A stretch of DNA of 64,000 nt, taken from Xanthobacteraceae bacterium (GTDB taxonomy: Bacteria > Pseudomonadota > Alphaproteobacteria > Rhizobiales > Xanthobacteraceae). A model generated the notes under the pieces. The model had not been told where the DNA came from and searched no databases. It saw only the letters and a program-made list of their open reading frames with translations. How positions within the stretch are numbered: position 1 is the stretch's first letter; every line of letters starts with the position of its first letter. Made by a program: the position numbers and the translations under genes. Location: NCBI GenBank assembly GCA_049646625.1, contig JBARWE010000219.1:4361-68360 (forward strand), in the 5' to 3' direction. This document shows, one piece after another, positions 1,145-21,405 of the stretch.

Positions 1145-2038
1145 ATGTTTCTGCGAAACTTTCTGTCCTCCGACCGTGTCGTCGGGATCGTGTTCATTAT
1201 GCCGTTTCTTATCACGGCTGCGGTGTTCATGGTCTACCCAATCGGCGAGGCGATCCGGCTTGCCTTCGTCAATTATAATCCGCTGCGGCCTGATGCGTCG
1301 TTCTATGTTGGGTTGGCTAATTTTCGGTATGTGTTCGATGATCCGCTGTTCTGGCAGTCGATGTGGCAGGCGACAGTCTGGACGCTACTATCGACCCTGT
1401 TTCAGACGGTGCTAGGTGTAGGGATAGCGCTACTTCTACACCAGGCGATTTTCGGTATCGCCGTTTTCCGTGGGTTGCTACTCTTTCCCTATATTGTACC
1501 GACAGTGGTAATAGCGCTGATCTGGCGCTGGATTTTTAATCCAGATATCGGCGTAGTTAACTATGGTCTCCAAGCTGCTGGGATTATCGATACGCCGATC
1601 TATTGGTTGTCGACCCCGACGATGGCGATGGCCTCGACCATCATGCTCAATGTCTGGAAGTATACCCCATTTGTTGTCATCGTCGTACTCGCGCGGCTAC
1701 AGACCGTTCCACTCGAATTGTATGATGCCGCAAAAGTGGATGGGGCAGGCGTAATTCGCCGCTTCCTTGATGTAACGCTTCCGCAGTTACGCGAAGTACT
1801 GGTCGTTGTAATCGTGTTCCGCACGATCTGGACTTTCAATAAGTTTGAAGAAATCTACCTGCTAACCAAGGGTGGGCCGGGAACATCGACCTTTAACCTT
1901 GCAATCTATTCCTTCGAACAATCCATGGCGAATCTCAAGCTCGGTGCTGGTGCCGCCACCGGCGTCGTTATGATGGTGATGTTGCTATTTGGCAGTATTA
2001 TCTATCTGCGCGTTGCTGGCTTCGAGCGGGAGGATTGA
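1145..2038 (+). CDS. ABC transporter permease (MalF/UgpA-like, BPD_transp_1)
   Basis: 297-aa polytopic hydrophobic protein with an EAA-like loop (AAKVDGAGVIRRFLDVTLP). Its position in the operon fits. Confidence 0.88.
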   Translation: MFLRNFLSSDRVVGIVFIMPFLITAAVFMVYPIGEAIRLAFVNYNPLRPDASFYVGLANFRYVFDDPLFWQSMWQATVWTLLSTLFQTVLGVGIALLLHQAIFGIAVFRGLLLFPYIVPTVVIALIWRWIFNPDIGVVNYGLQAAGIIDTPIYWLSTPTMAMASTIMLNVWKYTPFVVIVVLARLQTVPLELYDAAKVDGAGVIRRFLDVTLPQLREVLVVVIVFRTIWTFNKFEEIYLLTKGGPGTSTFNLAIYSFEQSMANLKLGAGAATGVVMMVMLLFGSIIYLRVAGFERED

Positions 2039-2042
2039 GGGT

Positions 2043-2939
2043 ATGAACGGGATTCCCTTCCAGGCGGCCAAACGCGCCGCGCTTTACTTGATACTCACGC
2101 TTATTACCTTCGTTGTTTGTTTCCCCCTCGTTTGGGCTCTTTCGACGTCACTAAAATCAAAATCAGAAATTTTCGCTACGCCGCCAACGCTAATTCCACA
2201 TACGGCGACTCTGGAAAACTACGAGGCGCTGCTCACCGGTCGCCAGCAATACTATCAAGCCGATCCCGGCGCTGCGGTGAGCAATCCATCGCCTGCGACA
2301 TTTTTTACTCGCTGGTTTCTGAACAGTATGATCGTAACCATAGGATCAACGCTTATTAGCATAGCGGTCTCGACGCTCGCCGCATATAGTCTTACGCGCT
2401 TCCGCTATTGGGGTAGGAACTTTATTCCGTACTTCAGCCTGCTTGGCTACATGGTCCCTTCGATCATTTTTGTCTTTCCTCTATTTCTGATGATGGTGCG
2501 TCTTGATCTAACCGATAGTCTGTGGAGTCTAATTTTTGGCTATGTATGTATCACTTTACCATTCTGCATGTGGTTGATGTGGGCCTTTATGCGCTCCATC
2601 CCACTCGAGATCGAGGAAGCTGCACTTATTGATGGTGCTTCCCGCTATCAGGTGTTCGCCAGCGTTGTTCTGCCAACGGCGCTTCCTGGAATTATCGCCG
2701 CGTCCATTTTCTCAATGATTGTTTCTTGGAATGACTATCTGTTTGGGCGCGTTTTTATAAATTCGCTTGATAACCTGACGCTGACTGTCGGTGTAATGCT
2801 TTTCTTTGAGGGGACGCATGTTGATTGGGGTCTATTGATGGCAGCGTCCGTACTGATGACGCTTCCGATGGCGATCTTATTCATGACGTTACAGCGCTAT
2901 CTCGTAGCCGGTTTTGGTGCTGGTGCTGTGAAAGGCTGA
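2043..2939 (+). CDS. ABC transporter permease (MalG/UgpE-like)
   Basis: ATG at 2043 is preceded by GGGAGGA and lies 5 nt after the upstream stop. EAA loop: EEAALIDGASRYQVFASVVLP. Confidence 0.88.
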   Translation: MNGIPFQAAKRAALYLILTLITFVVCFPLVWALSTSLKSKSEIFATPPTLIPHTATLENYEALLTGRQQYYQADPGAAVSNPSPATFFTRWFLNSMIVTIGSTLISIAVSTLAAYSLTRFRYWGRNFIPYFSLLGYMVPSIIFVFPLFLMMVRLDLTDSLWSLIFGYVCITLPFCMWLMWAFMRSIPLEIEEAALIDGASRYQVFASVVLPTALPGIIAASIFSMIVSWNDYLFGRVFINSLDNLTLTVGVMLFFEGTHVDWGLLMAASVLMTLPMAILFMTLQRYLVAGFGAGAVKG

Positions 2940-2946
2940 GCGGAAA

Positions 2947-4008
2947 ATGGAAGTCAGACTCGATCGTATCAACAAAAAATTCGGCACGGTTCATGTTCTG
3001 AAGGACATTGATCTCGTGTTTCCTGATCGGCAATTTATCACCCTGCTTGGGCCGTCAGGCTGTGGTAAGACCACTCTGCTTCGAATGATTGCCGGCTTGG
3101 AAGAGATAACCGACGGGCAGATACGGTTTGGCGACCTTGATGTAACAAGGCTCGCGCCTCGCGATCGCAATATCGCGATGGTCTTTCAGTCTTATGCGCT
3201 TTATCCGCAGATGACGGTTCGTAAGAATCTGGGTTATGGGTTGCGCGTGCGCAAGACACCGAAGACCGAAATCGATGTGGCCGTGGGGCGCGTCGCAAAA
3301 ATTCTAGAGATTGATCATTTGCTTGATCGTAAGCCCGGTCAACTTTCCGGTGGCCAGCGTCAGCGTGTTGCCCTTGGGCGAGCCATGGTTCGTAAGCCGG
3401 ATATTTTTTTGATGGACGAGCCGCTCTCCAATCTCGATGCCAAACTTCGTGTTATAATGCGTGGAGAGCTGCGAAAATTTCACCTCGATCTGAACGTGAC
3501 AACGATTTATGTGACGCACGATCAGCTCGAAGCAATGACGATGTCCGACTATATTGCTGTAATGCATCAGGGTGTATTGCAGCAATTTGGCACGCCGGCG
3601 GAAATCTACAACAGTCCAGCGAATATATTCGTGGCGAGTTTCATTGGTAGCCCGCCGATGAATTTCTTATCCTGTTTGATCGAAGATGGTAGGGCGGTGG
3701 CGGATGGTAGCGCCCTGGAATTAACCCCTCTTCCTGCGGTGCCGACAGTCAGTAAATTTCAACTTGGAGTTAGGCCGCAGGATATCTTGATAACTAATCA
3801 GAGCGGCGGAGATCTGCATGGCGCTGTGTCATTAGTTGAATTGCTCGGATCAGAGAAATTAGTTGAGGTTAAACTGGACTCTGGGAAGCTGCTGACCGTG
3901 CAAGTCAGTGCTGATCATATCGTAGAGATCGGTCAATCCGTGCATCTCCGGTTAAGATCGGAGAAAGTTCATATGTTCGATGAGGTTACGGGAAAAGCTA
4001 TCGTGTAG
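2947..4008 (+). CDS. ABC transporter ATP-binding protein (MalK/UgpC-like)
   Basis: Walker A GPSGCGKTT, signature LSGGQRQR and Walker B FLMDEPLSNLD, plus a C-terminal TOBE-like regulatory domain. Confidence 0.93.
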   Translation: MEVRLDRINKKFGTVHVLKDIDLVFPDRQFITLLGPSGCGKTTLLRMIAGLEEITDGQIRFGDLDVTRLAPRDRNIAMVFQSYALYPQMTVRKNLGYGLRVRKTPKTEIDVAVGRVAKILEIDHLLDRKPGQLSGGQRQRVALGRAMVRKPDIFLMDEPLSNLDAKLRVIMRGELRKFHLDLNVTTIYVTHDQLEAMTMSDYIAVMHQGVLQQFGTPAEIYNSPANIFVASFIGSPPMNFLSCLIEDGRAVADGSALELTPLPAVPTVSKFQLGVRPQDILITNQSGGDLHGAVSLVELLGSEKLVEVKLDSGKLLTVQVSADHIVEIGQSVHLRLRSEKVHMFDEVTGKAIV

Positions 4009-15568: not shown

Positions 15569-15996
15569 CGTCGGATGGCGACCTTTCGCAGACGCTCGGC
15601 CAGTTCAGCGCTGATCGGTGCCGGGCGGCGCGCTGCCTTCGAGAAGTGCACCAGAACCGTTTCGGCGACGGCGGCGCACTCGCTCTGGCTGAAAAGACCT
15701 TGTGCTATCGTAAAGGAACTTGTGCCGGTGTGTAGGATGCCCGTGCCTATCCTGACTTGTCCCGGCGCGAACAGCTCCCTGAGCAAATTGACCGTTGTGC
15801 GCGCGACGACGGCCGCGGTGGTCAGCTTCTCGCCGATAATCCCAAGCTCGATGCACAATGTCAGCCGCGCCGTGTCGCAATAGGTCACATATGAGGCGGT
15901 GTTGATGTGTCCGAGCAGATCGGTATCGCCGAATCTCAACGTATCGTCGGTCCAGTGCGGATACGCATCGGGATGCTTCAGTCGTTCGTCGATCAT
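15565..15996 (-). CDS. Acyl-CoA thioesterase, 4HBT/YbgC-like hotdog fold
   Basis: 143 aa. The N-terminus (...LRFGDTDLLGHINTASYVTYCDTAR) matches the 4HBT pattern (D.D..GHV.N..Y). Confidence 0.78.
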   Translation of the reverse strand: MIDERLKHPDAYPHWTDDTLRFGDTDLLGHINTASYVTYCDTARLTLCIELGIIGEKLTTAAVVARTTVNLLRELFAPGQVRIGTGILHTGTSSFTIAQGLFSQSECAAVAETVLVHFSKAARRPAPISAELAERLRKVAIRR

Positions 15997-16110
15997 GGTT
16001 GTCGTCCTAGCGGGGAGCGTGGGGGCGCGGCCGTGATGGCGGGAGGGCCAAACGGCCGCCGTGTTTTGCGATCAGGTCGCTCTTTCGAGCGCATGGAATG
16101 GAGGAATGAG

Positions 16111-16497
16111 ATGGCGCTTCAGGTCGGAGCAACGAGCAGCGAGAGCTTTGCCGTGGGGCAGGAGCATACGGCGCTGGCCATGGGCAACGAGGGGGTTTCC
16201 GTTCTCGGCACGCCGGCATTGATCCTGTTCGCGGAGACGGTCTGTCATCGGATGCTTGTGCCGCATCTGGCGGACGGAGACGCATCTGTCGGAATAGCTG
16301 TCAACATTCGTCATCTCAAGGCGACCCCGGTCGGCATGCGGGTGCAGGTCAGCGCCACCCTGCGGGAGATCGCTGGCAGGCGTCATCTGTTCGAGGTGTC
16401 CGGGCAGGACGAGGAAGGCGCGATCCTTGCCGGCACTCATGAACGGGCCATTGTCGATCTGGCGCCGTTTCTGGCCAAGATCGAGGTGGCCAGGTAG
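16111..16497 (+). CDS. Hotdog-fold thioesterase (fluoroacetyl-CoA-thioesterase-like family)
   Basis: ATG 16111 lies 7 nt after GGAGGA. Pattern: GVSVLGTPALILFAETVCHRML ... SVGIAVNIRHLKATPVGMRV ... GRRHLFEV. Confidence 0.72.
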   Translation: MALQVGATSSESFAVGQEHTALAMGNEGVSVLGTPALILFAETVCHRMLVPHLADGDASVGIAVNIRHLKATPVGMRVQVSATLREIAGRRHLFEVSGQDEEGAILAGTHERAIVDLAPFLAKIEVAR

Positions 16498-16587
16498 CGT
16501 CCCATCGAAGCCGCGCTCGCCCCATGGATCATGACGCGATGGCGCTCCGTTGACGATGCAAAGGCAGGGCGCCAGCACGGCCACCCG

Positions 16588-17412
16588 CTACATGTAACGA
16601 ACGACGAAGGTGGCGACGCCGATGGGCTTGTCGCTGCCGACCGTATTCCAGGTGACGTCGTATGAGACGGACAGGCCGCGCTCGCGCGGCTCGACCCGCC
16701 CGACCTTGACCGTTTGCGTCAGCCTCGCTCCCTGCACGAGCGGGGCGAGCAGGCGGATGCGGTCGCTGCCCTGAAACAGCATGGTGTCGACGTTACGTAT
16801 CTCGACCAGATCGAAGAACAGTTTTGGAAACAGCGCCGCCGCCATCATGCCCGGCGCAATCGTCGTGCCGAAGGGCGAGGCCTTGCAGCGCTCCTCGTCC
16901 CAATGGATCCATTCGGTGTTCTCGGTCGAGCGGCAGAACTGGTCGATCCGGTCCTGGGTGATTTCGATCGGCCCGGCCGTGCCAAGCGTCGTTCCCTCAA
17001 GCGGGGCGAATCCGGACAGGCCGTCGATGACGATGCTTGCGGTCATGGTCTTGCGTTCCTTTGAAAGTTGCCCGCCGGAGCCGGAGGCTGTGAACTGGTC
17101 CGCTATCGGTGCCAAGCCGTTCTGCGAGTTTTGGGCGACATTGCACCTGCCGCGACCGCAAAGACGGTCAAGGGACGTATCGTCGTCGGTGTCTGAGGTT
17201 CTGGCTCTTTCGGCCACGGTCAACCGCTGGAAGTAATCCATTGCGGTTGGCGGCAGCTTGCCGGACCACTTCACCCAGTTGAAGATGGTCCGGCACGTCC
17301 TGCACTCGAACATCACTTCCGAGATGCTGCTTCCGAATAGTGACAGAAGCTCCACGTTGCCGCCGTGACATTCGGGGCAGCGGACATCCTTGAAGTCGTC
17401 GTCGCGCATCAA
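16588..17412 (-). CDS. Fusion ORF: PaaD-type C-terminal zinc ribbon, a linker of about 70 aa, and a MaoC-like (R)-hydratase domain
   Basis: Residues 10-48 read VRCPECHGGNVELLSLFGSSISEVMFECRTCRTIFNWVKW. This matches the E. coli PaaD C-terminus as I recall it (VRCPRC...LISEFGSTACKALYRCDSCREPFDYFK). Residues 123-274 are a MaoC hotdog domain. No stop codon separates the two parts. An internal ATG at 17046 with AAGGAA upstream could also start a stand-alone MaoC protein. Confidence 0.7.
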   Translation of the reverse strand: MMRDDDFKDVRCPECHGGNVELLSLFGSSISEVMFECRTCRTIFNWVKWSGKLPPTAMDYFQRLTVAERARTSDTDDDTSLDRLCGRGRCNVAQNSQNGLAPIADQFTASGSGGQLSKERKTMTASIVIDGLSGFAPLEGTTLGTAGPIEITQDRIDQFCRSTENTEWIHWDEERCKASPFGTTIAPGMMAAALFPKLFFDLVEIRNVDTMLFQGSDRIRLLAPLVQGARLTQTVKVGRVEPRERGLSVSYDVTWNTVGSDKPIGVATFVVRYM

Positions 17413-18188
17413 TTGTAGGCCGCGGCCGGGTCTTTCAGTTGAACGATGCCGAACAGACGGTCCGGGATATTGCCGGCGCGGCGCCGTTCGATCGTCCAGT
17501 CGGCTGCCGGCGGGACCGGATCGGGCAGCTTTGCGTCGATTTGCGACGCCTGAAGCGCGGCCGAAACCTCATTGAGGAATGCCTCCCGCAGCTTCGTGGC
17601 CGGCAGCGCGCGCAGCCCCGCATCGTACAGGACGTCGTTCTGGCTGCTGTCGCCGAACCACGCCGCCGCCTGCGGCAGCCGCTGCGCCACCGCCTGGCCG
17701 AACTCCACATTCTCAGTGCCGGCGAAAATGCCGCGCCAGCCTTCGCAATACTTCAGGTGGAAGTAGGATTCCTGGCCGATTTTATGGACCAGACCGGACA
17801 ATGCGCGATCCGGATGCGACAGGAAGCCGGAGGCGAAAGTCCACATCGCCTGCTCGGCGAGATAGACCGATGCAACAAAGTCCTCCCAGGACTCCGGCGG
17901 GCTGTCGAGAAGGTTCATCGAGTTGATGCCGGTCGCATCGCGACGCCGCTCCAGATCGGTGTACGGGATGCCGAAATTGACCAGATACAGATACAGCCCG
18001 CGCGTATGGCCGAACGTTGCAGTCGCCATGCCGAGGATGGCGGCGAAGTCGGGCAGGGATCGGCCGTTGTGCACGCACATCGTATACCAGTTGGCCAGCA
18101 CAAGCTTGCTGTCGGCCAGCGCCAGCACGTCGGACTTGAGGCGATCGCGAGCCTCGGGGGCGAGCGTTGCCAGATCGAAACGGTTCAT
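17409..18188 (-). CDS. paaC: PaaC-like (PaaI) structural subunit of a phenylacetyl-CoA-epoxidase-type oxygenase
   Basis: 259 aa from ATG 18188. Ferritin-like helical protein (LADSKLVLANWYTMCV ... GHTRGLYLYL). It sits directly after paaB. Confidence 0.75.
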   Translation of the reverse strand: MNRFDLATLAPEARDRLKSDVLALADSKLVLANWYTMCVHNGRSLPDFAAILGMATATFGHTRGLYLYLVNFGIPYTDLERRRDATGINSMNLLDSPPESWEDFVASVYLAEQAMWTFASGFLSHPDRALSGLVHKIGQESYFHLKYCEGWRGIFAGTENVEFGQAVAQRLPQAAAWFGDSSQNDVLYDAGLRALPATKLREAFLNEVSAALQASQIDAKLPDPVPPAADWTIERRRAGNIPDRLFGIVQLKDPAAAYN

Positions 18189-19735: not shown

Positions 19736-19902
19736 TCTTTTTCTCCATGGGTGCTACCAAAATCGTGGCCCCGTCCCTCTGAACGGTCCTGATGTCAGGC
19801 CCTCGGAAAGGGGCGGGGCGTCTCCTGCACCGCTTGCAAACATACCGACTACTTAGTAATGTTATCAGACGGAGATTTTGTCAAGTTTGGATGTTCACAG
19901 GG

Positions 19903-21405
19903 ATGCGCAAGCTTCAGCTTTTCATTGGTGGTGAGTTCGTCGAGGCGGAAAACGGCGAGACTTATTTTTCGATAAATCCGGCCAACGGCGAGGCGATCGC
20001 CGAATGCGCCTGGGCGGGCGCGGGCGACGCGGAGCGGGCGATTGCCGCCGCCCGGACGGCGTTCGACAGGGGGCCGTGGCGCGACTTTTCGGCCTCGGAC
20101 CGCAAGAGCGTGCTGCTGAAGCTCGCCGCCCTGTTGAAGGACCGCCAGAACGACGTCGCGCTGATGGAGGTGCAGGACGCCGGCGCGCTGATCGGCAAGG
20201 CGACGACCGATGTCGCGCTTTGCGTCAAGCAGCTTCGCTATTTTGCCGAGATGGCGGACAAGTTCACCGGCGAGCCGGTGCCGATCGAGGGCCTGTCCCG
20301 GCCGGGACGCTCGCACTACTATACGGTGAGGGAGCCGTTCGGCGTTTGCGGCGCCATCATCCCCTGGAATTTTCCATTGACGATGGCGGTGTGGAAGATC
20401 GCCTCCGCGCTGGCGACGGGCAATGCGATCGTTCTCAAATGTGCGGCGGAAACGCCTTTAAGCGCCATGGAGCTGGCGCGATTGTGCAACGAGGCGGGCG
20501 TGCCGCCGGGCGTGGTCAATGTGATCACCGGTGAGGTGGAGGCCGGGCAGGCGCTGGTCAAAAGCTCCTCTGTCGACAAAATCTCCTTTACCGGCTCGAC
20601 CGAAGTCGGCCGCGAGATCATGCGCGAGGCGGCCGCGACGTTGAAGAACGTGACGCTCGAATGCGGAGGAAAATCGGCCAACATCGTCATGGACGACGCC
20701 GACCTTGAGACCGCCGTGGATGGCTCGCTGTATGCGACCTTCTTCCATAGCGGGCAGGTCTGCGAGTCGGGCACCCGTCTTCTGTTGAGCAAGAAGCTTC
20801 ATGATTCGTTCGTCGAGCGAATGATTGCGCGTGTCGAAGCCATGCGGATCGGAGACCCCATGGATCCGGAGACGACGGTGGGTCCGGTCGTCTCCGAACG
20901 GCAGATGGATCGCGTCCTCGACTATATCGAAGTTGGCAAGCGCGAGGGCGCCAGGCTGAGCGTCGGCGGTTCGCGTGCGACCGAGGGGCCTCTTGCCAGG
21001 GGGTTTTTCGTCAAGCCGACGATCTTTACCGACGTCAGCAACGACATGCGGATTGCCCGTGAGGAAATTTTTGGCCCGGTTCTATGCGTTCTTCGCTATG
21101 GCGACGTTGATGAGGCGGTCGGGATCGCGAACGATAGCATTTTTGGCCTCGCCGCCGGTGTCTGGAGCAAAGATATCCCGCGGGCGACGGACGTTGCGCG
21201 AAAACTCCAGGCGGGCTGGGTCTGGCTCAATGAATGGCATGTGCTATCGGAGCGCGCTCCGTTCGGCGGCTACAAGCAGTCCGGGATCGGCCGCGAACTG
21301 GGTGAAGAAGGCTTGAATGCGTATACACAGCTCAAGACGCTCTATCGGGACGACTCGACGGGCCGTCAGGCGAAGCCGTGGTACGACATTCTCGTTCGTC
21401 AGTAG
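19903..21405 (+). CDS. NAD(P)-dependent aldehyde dehydrogenase
   Basis: Catalytic region LECGGKSANIV and FHSGQVCESGTR. ATG 19903 is chosen because it begins the typical LFIGGEFV N-terminus. An alternative ATG is at 19891. Confidence 0.9.
   Translation: MRKLQLFIGGEFVEAENGETYFSINPANGEAIAECAWAGAGDAERAIAAARTAFDRGPWRDFSASDRKSVLLKLAALLKDRQNDVALMEVQDAGALIGKATTDVALCVKQLRYFAEMADKFTGEPVPIEGLSRPGRSHYYTVREPFGVCGAIIPWNFPLTMAVWKIASALATGNAIVLKCAAETPLSAMELARLCNEAGVPPGVVNVITGEVEAGQALVKSSSVDKISFTGSTEVGREIMREAAATLKNVTLECGGKSANIVMDDADLETAVDGSLYATFFHSGQVCESGTRLLLSKKLHDSFVERMIARVEAMRIGDPMDPETTVGPVVSERQMDRVLDYIEVGKREGARLSVGGSRATEGPLARGFFVKPTIFTDVSNDMRIAREEIFGPVLCVLRYGDVDEAVGIANDSIFGLAAGVWSKDIPRATDVARKLQAGWVWLNEWHVLSERAPFGGYKQSGIGRELGEEGLNAYTQLKTLYRDDSTGRQAKPWYDILVRQ

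What the first reader, a model, noticed from the sequence alone, without database searches (positions are those of the whole stretch)
16588..17412. PaaD zinc ribbon fused in frame to a MaoC-like hydratase
The 274-aa ORF has three parts. It starts with about 48 residues matching the PaaD C-terminal zinc ribbon (CPEC...CRTC). A linker of about 70 residues follows (acidic DTDDD run, RGRC, SGSGG). It ends with a complete MaoC hotdog domain.

In E. coli, the MaoC-like hydratase domain of the pathway sits on PaaZ, fused to an aldehyde dehydrogenase. Here the ALDH is a separate divergent gene, and the hydratase is attached to an oxygenase assembly module instead. That could physically couple ring oxygenation to hydrolysis of the reactive product.

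An internal ATG at 17046 with AAGGAA upstream could also yield a free MaoC protein.
Basis: seen in the sequence. Interest (0 to 1): 0.62.

Follow-up and report, generated by a model that had tools for sequence, protein, structure and literature searches.

The report
Young stop-loss fusion of two genes
A small zinc-ribbon gene and the hotdog-fold (MaoC) enzyme gene after it have merged into one reading frame in this bacterial genus because the first gene lost its stop codon; the merger is real but recent, and nothing shows that it has a function.

Summary
The ORF is real. It lies on the minus strand at 17412-16588: 274 aa from TTG, or 273 aa from ATG 17409.

**Anatomy**
- Residues 8-48 are a PaaD-type zinc ribbon.
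- Residues 139-243 are a MaoC hotdog domain.
- About 70 residues between them are predicted disordered.

**Not an artefact.** The identical stretch occurs in at least 20 metagenome runs from 12 studies. A second species of the genus (Xanthobacteraceae MAG) also has the open frame.

**Origin.** The fusion is confined to this narrow clade.
- A sister lineage about 11% diverged has the same operon. There the zinc-ribbon gene ends at TAA after 80 codons, followed by a 122-nt spacer and a separate MaoC gene.
- All 13 more distant loci that hold both genes keep them apart.
- None of the best 150 hits among 1.84 billion representative proteins joins the two halves.

**Linker.** It is the old C-terminal tail plus the former spacer. 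It diverges at the intergenic rate (13-16%, against 4-8% for coding sequence), with dN/dS about 0.5. Staying stop-free needs no selection (P about 0.4).

**Products.** MaoC's own AAGGAA-N9-ATG is conserved, so free MaoC is probably still made alongside the fusion.

**Verdict.** This is a young stop-loss fusion that is probably near-neutral. Substrate channelling is not supported.

The parts
16588..17412 (-). Whole fused ORF. It is 274 aa from TTG 17412, or 273 aa from ATG 17409-17407. The stop is TAG at 16590-16588.
   Evidence: The same 273-aa product is called in independent assemblies.
17407..17411 (-). TGATG junction. The TGA stop of the upstream PaaC-like gene (17411-17409) shares one base with the ATG of the zinc-ribbon ORF (17409-17407). 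This is the geometry expected for translational coupling.
   Evidence: The same 1-nt overlap occurs in unfused relatives L001, L005 and L108.
17245..17409 (-). PaaD-type zinc-ribbon core, residues 2-56 (CPEC...CRTC, FNWVKW, LPPTA). It is under strong purifying selection.
   Evidence: Pfam PF23451 E 7.8e-11. It is 41% identical to the C-terminus of the genome's canonical PaaD. dN/dS is 0.08-0.10.
17170..17244 (-). Ancestral variable C-terminal tail of the zinc-ribbon protein, residues 57-81. In the sister lineage the gene ends here with TAA after 80 codons.
   Evidence: dN/dS is 0.6-0.7 and nt divergence 13-16%.
17047..17169 (-). Former intergenic spacer, now read through as residues 82-122 (41 codons).
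   Evidence: Unfused relatives have a 114-122 nt non-coding spacer at this position. Divergence is 15.8%, like true intergenic DNA. Differences by codon position are 8/3/8. AF2 pLDDT is 29-38.
17056..17061 (-). Shine-Dalgarno AAGGAA, 9 nt upstream of the internal ATG.
   Evidence: The last 20 nt before the ATG are identical in the window, G002 and L021. They are recognisable in unfused L018, L001 and L005.
16588..17046 (-). MaoC/NodN-type single hotdog domain: 152 aa from ATG 17046, residues 123-274 of the fusion.
   Evidence: Pfam PF01575. Rv0130 2C2I matches at E 5e-21. All homologues outside the clade are 150-164 aa stand-alone proteins. AF2 pLDDT is above 89. dN/dS is 0.18-0.20.
16903..16920 (-). 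Hydratase-motif segment N-T-E-W-I-H (residues 165-170). Asn165 stands where Rv0130 has the catalytic Asp40. His170 corresponds to His45. Glu167 stands where Rv0130 has Gln42.
   Evidence: Alignment. N and E are conserved in all cluster-associated homologues, whereas distant homologues keep D..Q. The catalytic residues of Rv0130 are given in PMC2698920.

Best explanation
The ORF is a real, evolutionarily young gene fusion. It arose in the common ancestor of this species and one sister species, both Xanthobacteraceae MAGs from sludge and soil.

**Ancestral layout.** The ancestral operon was paaA-like, DUF59, paaB-like, paaC-like, a stand-alone zinc-ribbon gene of about 80 aa (the C-terminal half of a split PaaD), a spacer of about 120 nt, then a stand-alone MaoC/NodN-type hotdog gene with its own ribosome-binding site.

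**The event.** The zinc-ribbon gene lost its stop codon. The spacer was in register with MaoC, or came into register, and happened to contain no stop.

**Consequence for translation.** Ribosomes that start at the coupled TGATG junction must now read through the old tail and spacer into MaoC. That gives a product of about 30 kDa: zinc ribbon, a disordered tether of about 70 residues, then the hotdog domain.

**Second product.** The AAGGAA-N9-ATG of MaoC is kept intact. A free 152-aa MaoC is therefore most likely still made from the same mRNA.

**Selection.** The two folded parts are under purifying selection. The tether evolves at the neutral rate. The fusion is best read as a tolerated, roughly neutral event, not an engineered coupling.

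**What is shown and what is inferred.**
- Shown: the anatomy, the authenticity of the sequence, the phyletic distribution, the ancestral two-gene state, and the evolutionary rates.
- Inferred: that both products are made, and that the fusion is neutral.
For: **Authenticity**
- 20 runs of 12 studies hold 92-97% of the stretch's words.
- Contigs from 4 studies lie on it without indels. One run holds both fused strains.
- The fused ORF is intact in G002, a different species of the same genus, at 90% aa identity and with no stops, and in L021.

**Ancestral two-gene state**
- L018, L108 and L109 are 9-13% diverged in coding sequence. They share the synteny, have an 80-aa zinc-ribbon gene ending in TAA, a 122-nt spacer, and MaoC in another frame.
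- L001: a 73-aa gene, then a 114-nt spacer.
- L005 (Azospirillum): a 71-aa gene, with a ligase gene between it and MaoC.

**Census**
- Of the 18 loci with both features, only those of the window, G002 and L021 are fused; all the others are separate.
- An exhaustive phmmer search of 1.84e9 representatives found no hit among the best 150 that matches both halves. Zinc-ribbon hits are 72-88 aa and MaoC hits mostly about 150-160 aa.
- A word-based search with residues 1-80 found only the ORF's own cluster.

**Evolutionary rates (window against G002 and L021)**
- dN/dS: zinc ribbon 0.08-0.10, MaoC 0.18-0.20, linker 0.51-0.57.
- Differences by codon position: linker 13/5/11, MaoC 4/1/14.
- Nucleotide divergence: linker 13-16%, true intergenic 12-21%, coding 4-8%.

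**Chance expectations**
- P(linker stays stop-free after 29 random substitutions) = 0.39.
- P(a spacer of this composition is open in a given frame) = 0.29.

**Other**
- The SD and ATG are conserved.
- AF2 pLDDT: residues 49-121 below 50, MaoC above 89.
- Metatranscriptome contigs span the linker/MaoC junction at 100% identity, though at low depth.
Against: - The open frame and the exact length of the 195-nt linker are kept in two lineages about 15% diverged there. This is weakly suggestive of constraint. However, the two true intergenic regions nearby show only 5 gap columns in 204 nt, so finding no indel is not significant.
- A linker dN/dS of 0.5 is below 1. With 10-11 synonymous and 19 non-synonymous changes, it is not distinguishable from neutrality.
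- Only two deep lineages of the fused clade are available.
- No protein-level data exist. Production of both products, and the stability of the fusion, are untested.
Confidence: 0.75

Rival explanations
1. Adaptive tethering. The fusion is maintained by selection because the zinc ribbon docks on the PaaA/B/C-like oxygenase. The docked ribbon holds the hotdog enzyme next to the active site and channels a reactive CoA-bound oxygenation product.
For: - The zinc-ribbon gene and MaoC are adjacent and co-directional in the nearest relatives (L001, L018/L108). The two genes co-occur in the same cluster across Alpha-, Beta- and Gammaproteobacteria.
- The fusion persists in two species and in many environments.
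- A long disordered tether is compatible with a leash.
Against: - The fusion is confined to one shallow clade. Every other lineage manages with separate genes, often on opposite strands (L027-L037) or with a ligase gene between them (L005).
- The linker evolves at the intergenic rate.
- The frame staying open is expected by chance (P = 0.39).
- The free-MaoC start signals are retained.
- PaaD is not part of the catalytic complex in vitro and its role is unknown or related to maturation (PMC4498308).
Confidence: 0.15
2. The fusion is made but promptly split. Proteolysis in the disordered linker regenerates separate zinc-ribbon and MaoC proteins, so the cell is functionally unchanged. This is a sub-variant of the neutral reading.
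For: - 73 residues have pLDDT below 50.
- The linker sequence is unconstrained.
Against: No direct evidence either way. It cannot be addressed with sequence data.
Confidence: 0.07
3. Only the internal start is used. The zinc-ribbon part would then be an untranslated or decaying leader, or the read-through would be a sequencing or assembly error.
For: - The internal SD and ATG are conserved.
- Gene callers on truncated contigs report the 152-aa product.
Against: - The zinc-ribbon core has dN/dS 0.08-0.10, with differences almost only at third codon positions (0/2/6), so it is translated.
- Its coupled start at the paaC stop is kept.
- The 152-aa calls from L019 and L020 come from contigs that begin inside the linker.
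- Sequence error is excluded by more than 20 independent runs and by a second species.
Confidence: 0.03

Closest known systems
PaaD of the phenylacetyl-CoA epoxidase system (E. coli; TIGR02159; about 165 aa, DUF59 plus C-terminal zinc ribbon)
   Same: - Residues 8-48 match the Pfam PaaD zinc-ribbon domain.
- They are 41% identical to the C-terminus of this genome's canonical PaaD.
- The gene sits in a PaaA/B/C-like operon.
   Different: - Only the last ~40 residues of PaaD are present.
- The DUF59 half is a separate gene between the paaA-like and paaB-like genes.
- The score is far below the equivalog cut-off: 25.6 against 108 bits.
- In this clade the ribbon is fused to a hotdog enzyme.
Stand-alone PaaD-type zinc-ribbon proteins (69-88 aa) of Paa-like clusters, e.g. 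P0042, P0031, P0032
   Same: - Same conserved core: DFxxVxCPxC...SLFG..SEV.F.C..C...FNWxKW..LPP.
- Same operon position after the paaC-like gene, with a 1-nt stop/start overlap.
   Different: These proteins end after a short variable tail. The window's copy has no stop codon and runs on into MaoC.
PaaZ (E. coli; ALDH fused to a MaoC-type oxepin-CoA hydrolase domain)
   Same: A MaoC-family hotdog domain associated with a Paa-type oxygenase and an aldehyde dehydrogenase in one locus.
   Different: - The relationship is weak: TIGR02278 17.3 bits against a cut-off of 562.8, and profile E 7e-7 to 6JQL.
- The ALDH is a separate gene.
- The hotdog domain's fusion partner is a zinc ribbon.
- The genome has a true PaaZ elsewhere.
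Rv0130 of M. tuberculosis (PDB 2C2I), a NodN-like (R)-specific enoyl-CoA hydratase
   Same: - Best structural relative: E 5e-21 for the single sequence and 2e-49 for the profile.
- Same length (~150 aa) and the same single hotdog domain.
- The catalytic His is conserved.
   Different: - The catalytic Asp40 is Asn here and in all cluster-associated homologues.
- Gln42 is Glu. The chemistry may therefore differ.

Membership tests
Pfam PF23451 Zn_ribbon_PaaD | Score above the gathering threshold (27 bits), with the four-Cys zinc ribbon CPxC...CxxC | tested here: met
   41.9 bits, E 7.8e-11, residues 8-48. The motifs are CPEC and CRTC.
PaaD, 1,2-phenylacetyl-CoA epoxidase subunit (TIGR02159 equivalog) | Full-length match (DUF59 plus zinc ribbon) above the 108.15-bit cut-off | tested here: not met
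   25.6 bits, covering only profile positions 104-144. A true PaaD scoring 203.8 bits lies on another contig.
Pfam PF01575 MaoC_dehydratas | Score above the gathering threshold (27 bits) | tested here: met
   42.6 bits, E 5.6e-11, residues 139-243. AF2 gives a confident hotdog fold.
PaaZ, oxepin-CoA hydrolase / ALDH (TIGR02278) | Bifunctional ALDH + MaoC protein above the 562.8-bit cut-off | tested here: not met
   17.3 bits, covering only profile positions 540-643. The genome's real PaaZ scores 1070.5 bits.
NodN/Rv0130-like (R)-specific enoyl-CoA hydratase | Sequence similarity over the whole single hotdog domain | tested here: met
   2C2I matches at E 5e-21 over residues 10-152 of 152. The profile gives E 2.2e-49.
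NodN/Rv0130-like (R)-specific enoyl-CoA hydratase | Catalytic Asp-His pair (Asp40/His45 in Rv0130) | tested here: not met
   His is present (H170). Asp is replaced by Asn165 here and in all close homologues. The catalytic residues are taken from PMC2698920.
NodN/Rv0130-like (R)-specific enoyl-CoA hydratase | Hydratase activity on enoyl-CoA | not testable with these tools
   Needs an enzyme assay.
Gene fusion by stop-codon loss (read-through of an intergenic spacer) | Close relatives with two separate genes, a stop codon at the homologous position, and a non-coding spacer homologous to the linker | tested here: met
   L018/L108 have TAA after codon 80 and a 122-nt spacer. L001 has a stop after codon 73 and a 114-nt spacer.

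The most novel reading that the evidence does not exclude
The fusion is an adaptive leash. The zinc-ribbon half of a split PaaD docks on the PaaA/B/C-like diiron oxygenase. In this clade it would hold an Asn-variant hotdog enzyme at the complex so that a reactive CoA-bound oxygenation product is processed without release. That would also assign the PaaD zinc ribbon a structural, complex-binding role.
Probability: 0.12. Interest if true: 0.55.

Novelty: new variant of a known kind. Interest (0 to 1): 0.25.

Why it matters
As a fusion, this is a clean and datable natural example of two adjacent genes becoming one. A lost stop codon turned an intergenic spacer into a disordered linker of about 40 extra residues, while the downstream gene's own start signals were kept.

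It does not reveal a new mechanism, and there is no sign that the merger is functional.

For annotators, the practical message is that the 273-aa protein should not be read as evidence that PaaD-type zinc ribbons and MaoC enzymes work as one unit.

The more interesting biology lies around it:
- A widespread paralogous Paa-like oxygenase cluster has a split PaaD.
- Its dedicated MaoC subfamily has the catalytic Asp replaced by Asn.

Tried and rejected
- **Plus-strand translation.** It gave stops; the ORF is on the minus strand.
- **First DNA alignment and first dN/dS run.** L007 was used in the wrong orientation and register, so those numbers were discarded and redone.
- **PDB sequence search with the zinc ribbon.** Only noise came back (antibody light chains, Rpb9 at E above 0.04), so no solved relative is detectable by sequence.
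- **Scan of JGI metagenome contigs with residues 2-121.** Of 87 pattern matches, none was confirmed, so no further lineages were gained.
- **Alignment A4 of the fusion with stand-alone ribbons and MaoCs.** MAFFT spread the short ribbons across the MaoC part. A4 was dropped and A5 (fusions plus MaoCs) was used for AF2, which left the zinc-ribbon part with a shallow alignment (pLDDT 57-79).
- **Promoter and terminator scan of 16400-17500.** Nothing was found in the linker.
- **Absence of indels in the linker as evidence of selection.** Rejected as not significant. The neighbouring true intergenic DNA shows only 5 gap columns in 204 nt between the same two genomes. The gap-rich alignment to the sister lineage is inflated by saturation.
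- **Sequencing error.** Rejected.

Full report
**1. Observation**

Positions 16588-17412 hold one uninterrupted ORF on the minus strand. The plus strand is full of stops. The ORF is 274 aa from TTG 17412. From ATG 17409, the start used in public gene calls, it is 273 aa.

That ATG shares one base with the TGA of the upstream PaaC-like gene (TGATG).

Pfam finds two domains:
- Zn_ribbon_PaaD at residues 8-48 (E 7.8e-11).
- MaoC_dehydratas at residues 139-243 (E 5.6e-11).

The ribbon is 41% identical over 41 residues to the C-terminal end of the canonical PaaD encoded elsewhere in the same genome. The internal ATG 17046, preceded by AAGGAA with 9 nt spacing, is present.

**2. Surroundings**

The minus-strand operon reads:
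- PaaA-like, 19735-18752.
- DUF59/FeS_assembly_P, about 18755-18447. This is the N-terminal half of a PaaD.
- PaaB-like, 18450-18193.
- PaaC-like, 18221-17409.
- The ORF under study.

All Paa matches are far below NCBIfam's equivalog cut-offs.

Flanking genes:
- A divergent ALDH, 19792-21405.
- An FlK-type and a 4HBT_2 thioesterase.
- An AMP-dependent ligase.

The ORFs after the ALDH (from 21448 and about 22330) correspond to the crotonase genes of the relatives' clusters.

The same genome carries, on other contigs:
- A canonical paaC-paaD-paaE stretch. Its PaaD scores 203.8 bits, above the cut-off.
- A canonical bifunctional PaaZ scoring 1070.5 bits.

The window's operon is therefore a paralogous Paa-like system. 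It is not this organism's phenylacetate pathway.

**3. Is the read-through an error? No.**

- Twenty DNA runs from 12 studies (sludge, soil, bioreactor, urban, solid waste) hold 92-97% of the stretch's sampled words.
- Contigs from four of those studies lie on 16500-17500 with no indel.
- One run contains two co-occurring strains, both open.
- A different species of the same genus has the same 274-codon frame at 90% aa identity and without stops. This is G002, the MAG Xanthobacteraceae bacterium AS-MESO-OLR.376.
- So does a Logan contig from another run (L021).

**4. Distribution and origin**

Every MaoC homologue outside this cluster is a stand-alone protein of 150-164 aa.

Relatives with separate genes:
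- *L001* (74% MaoC identity) has the same gene order. Its zinc ribbon is a separate 73-aa gene, followed by a 114-nt spacer.
- *L018, L108 and L109* form the sister lineage, 9-13% nucleotide divergence in coding parts, seen in at least 3 runs. It has the identical operon. The zinc-ribbon gene ends ...DSNDDNTR-TAA after 80 codons. A 122-nt spacer follows, and MaoC lies in another frame.
- *Azospirillum* (L005) has a ligase gene between the two.

Wider searches:
- A census covered 80 loci from 185,579 species genomes plus the loci above. It found 18 loci with a PaaD-type ribbon near a related MaoC. Only those of the window's genome, G002 and L021 are fused.
- An exhaustive phmmer search of 1.84 billion cluster representatives gave 2417 hits. 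None of the best 150 matched both halves. Ribbon hits are 72-88 aa.
- A word-based search restricted to residues 1-80 found only the ORF's own cluster.

By parsimony, the fusion arose once, recently, through loss of the ribbon gene's stop codon. Residues 57-81 are the old variable tail. Residues 82-122 are the former spacer.

**5. Is the linker under selection?**

Window against G002 and L021:

| Segment | dN/dS | Differences by codon position |
|---|---|---|
| Zn ribbon | 0.08-0.10 | 0/2/6 |
| MaoC | 0.18-0.20 | 4/1/14 |
| Linker | 0.51-0.57 | 13/5/11 |

Nucleotide divergence:
- Linker: 13-16%.
- The two neighbouring true intergenic regions: 12% and 21%.
- Coding sequence: 4-8%.

Chance expectations:
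- In simulation, 39% of linkers given 29 random substitutions stay stop-free.
- 29% of shuffled spacers are open in a given frame.

The absence of indels is not significant against the flanking intergenic DNA.

AF2 model, in 273-aa numbering:
- Ribbon: three strands, pLDDT 57-79.
- Residues 49-121: pLDDT 29-38.
- Hotdog domain: pLDDT above 89.

**6. How it most likely works**

- The ribbon core is clearly translated. It shows strong purifying selection and keeps its coupled start.
- With no stop codon, those ribosomes must continue to the MaoC stop. A ribbon-tether-hotdog protein is therefore necessarily made. This is inferred.
- The last 20 nt before ATG 17046, including AAGGAA, are identical in all fused lineages. 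They resemble the start region of the unfused relatives. Independent initiation of free MaoC probably continues. This is also inferred.
- Metatranscriptome contigs span the linker/MaoC junction and the paaC/ribbon junction at 100% identity. Depth is low, and DNA carry-over is not excluded.
- PaaD is required in vivo but not for catalysis in vitro, and its role is unknown (PMC4498308). A channelling role for the ribbon has no basis yet.

**7. The hotdog domain**

- Its nearest solved relative is Rv0130 (2C2I), a NodN-like (R)-hydratase, at E 5e-21. By profile the value is 2e-49, against 7e-7 for PaaZ.
- Rv0130's catalytic residues are Asp40 and His45 (PMC2698920).
- Here the motif reads TENTEWIH where Rv0130 has TGDHQWIH: Asp becomes Asn165, Gln42 becomes Glu167, and His is kept.
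- The Asn/Glu pair is conserved in all cluster-associated homologues from Alpha-, Beta- and Gammaproteobacteria. More distant homologues keep Asp/Gln.
- Calling the domain a 'hydratase' is therefore provisional.

**8. Verdict**

The fusion is a shallow, clade-specific stop-loss read-through. Its linker behaves like non-coding DNA.

It is a new domain combination but an ordinary kind of event. Functional coupling of oxygenation and hydrolysis is not supported (about 12-15%).

Interest is low to moderate. The surrounding split-PaaD, Asn-variant MaoC cluster is the more promising subject.

Noticed in passing
window 18755-18447 and 17409-17245 (minus strand); L001, L005, L108, L027-L037: PaaD is split into two genes. 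The DUF59 half (102 aa) lies between the paaA-like and paaB-like genes. The zinc-ribbon half (69-88 aa when stand-alone) lies after the paaC-like gene in the nearest relatives. A stand-alone ribbon gene also recurs in Paa-like clusters of Alpha-, Beta- and Gammaproteobacteria.
   Followed up: partly
window 16920-16903 (minus strand); alignment A3: The cluster-associated MaoC subfamily has Asn in place of the catalytic Asp of the hydratase motif. It also has Glu where Rv0130 has Gln42 (xxN[TD]EWIH against GDHQWIH). This is a conserved D..Q to N..E swap of unknown catalytic meaning.
   Followed up: partly
G000 contigs C89 (L102: paaC 659-1447, paaD 1441-1941, paaE 1952-3034) and C8:193-2208 (L106): The same genome has a canonical paaC-paaD-paaE stretch and a full-length bifunctional PaaZ on other contigs. 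The window's PaaE-less operon is therefore a second, paralogous system. It might borrow a reductase from elsewhere.
   Followed up: partly
window 16733: All four independent assemblies laid on the stretch read C where the window has T. On the minus strand this changes Gln to Arg in LVQGARL. The window's base is a minority variant or a consensus error of the MAG.
   Followed up: partly
window 15907-16497 (+): The mechanical 196-aa ORF for the FlK-type thioesterase is probably too long. Relatives call a 127-128 aa gene, corresponding to about 16111-16497. This leaves a ~114-nt divergent intergenic region towards the 4HBT_2 thioesterase gene.
   Followed up: partly
run X12 on window 16921-17287: One activated-sludge run holds both fused lineages side by side. 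The window type has depth ~27. The other type has depth ~7.5 and shows 35 differences and no gaps, which looks like the G002 type. The two species or strains therefore appear to co-occur.
   Followed up: no
L034 (CAXQNK010000063.1): A 7-kb contig binned as a Nitrosopumilus sp. MAG carries this proteobacterial-type MaoC and zinc-ribbon pair. Mis-binning or horizontal transfer are both possible.
   Followed up: no
L002/L003 4332-7228: In a Gammaproteobacteria MAG, the related MaoC gene sits between two PaaA_PaaC-family genes, and no zinc-ribbon ORF was detected. The cluster layout is therefore variable.
   Followed up: no
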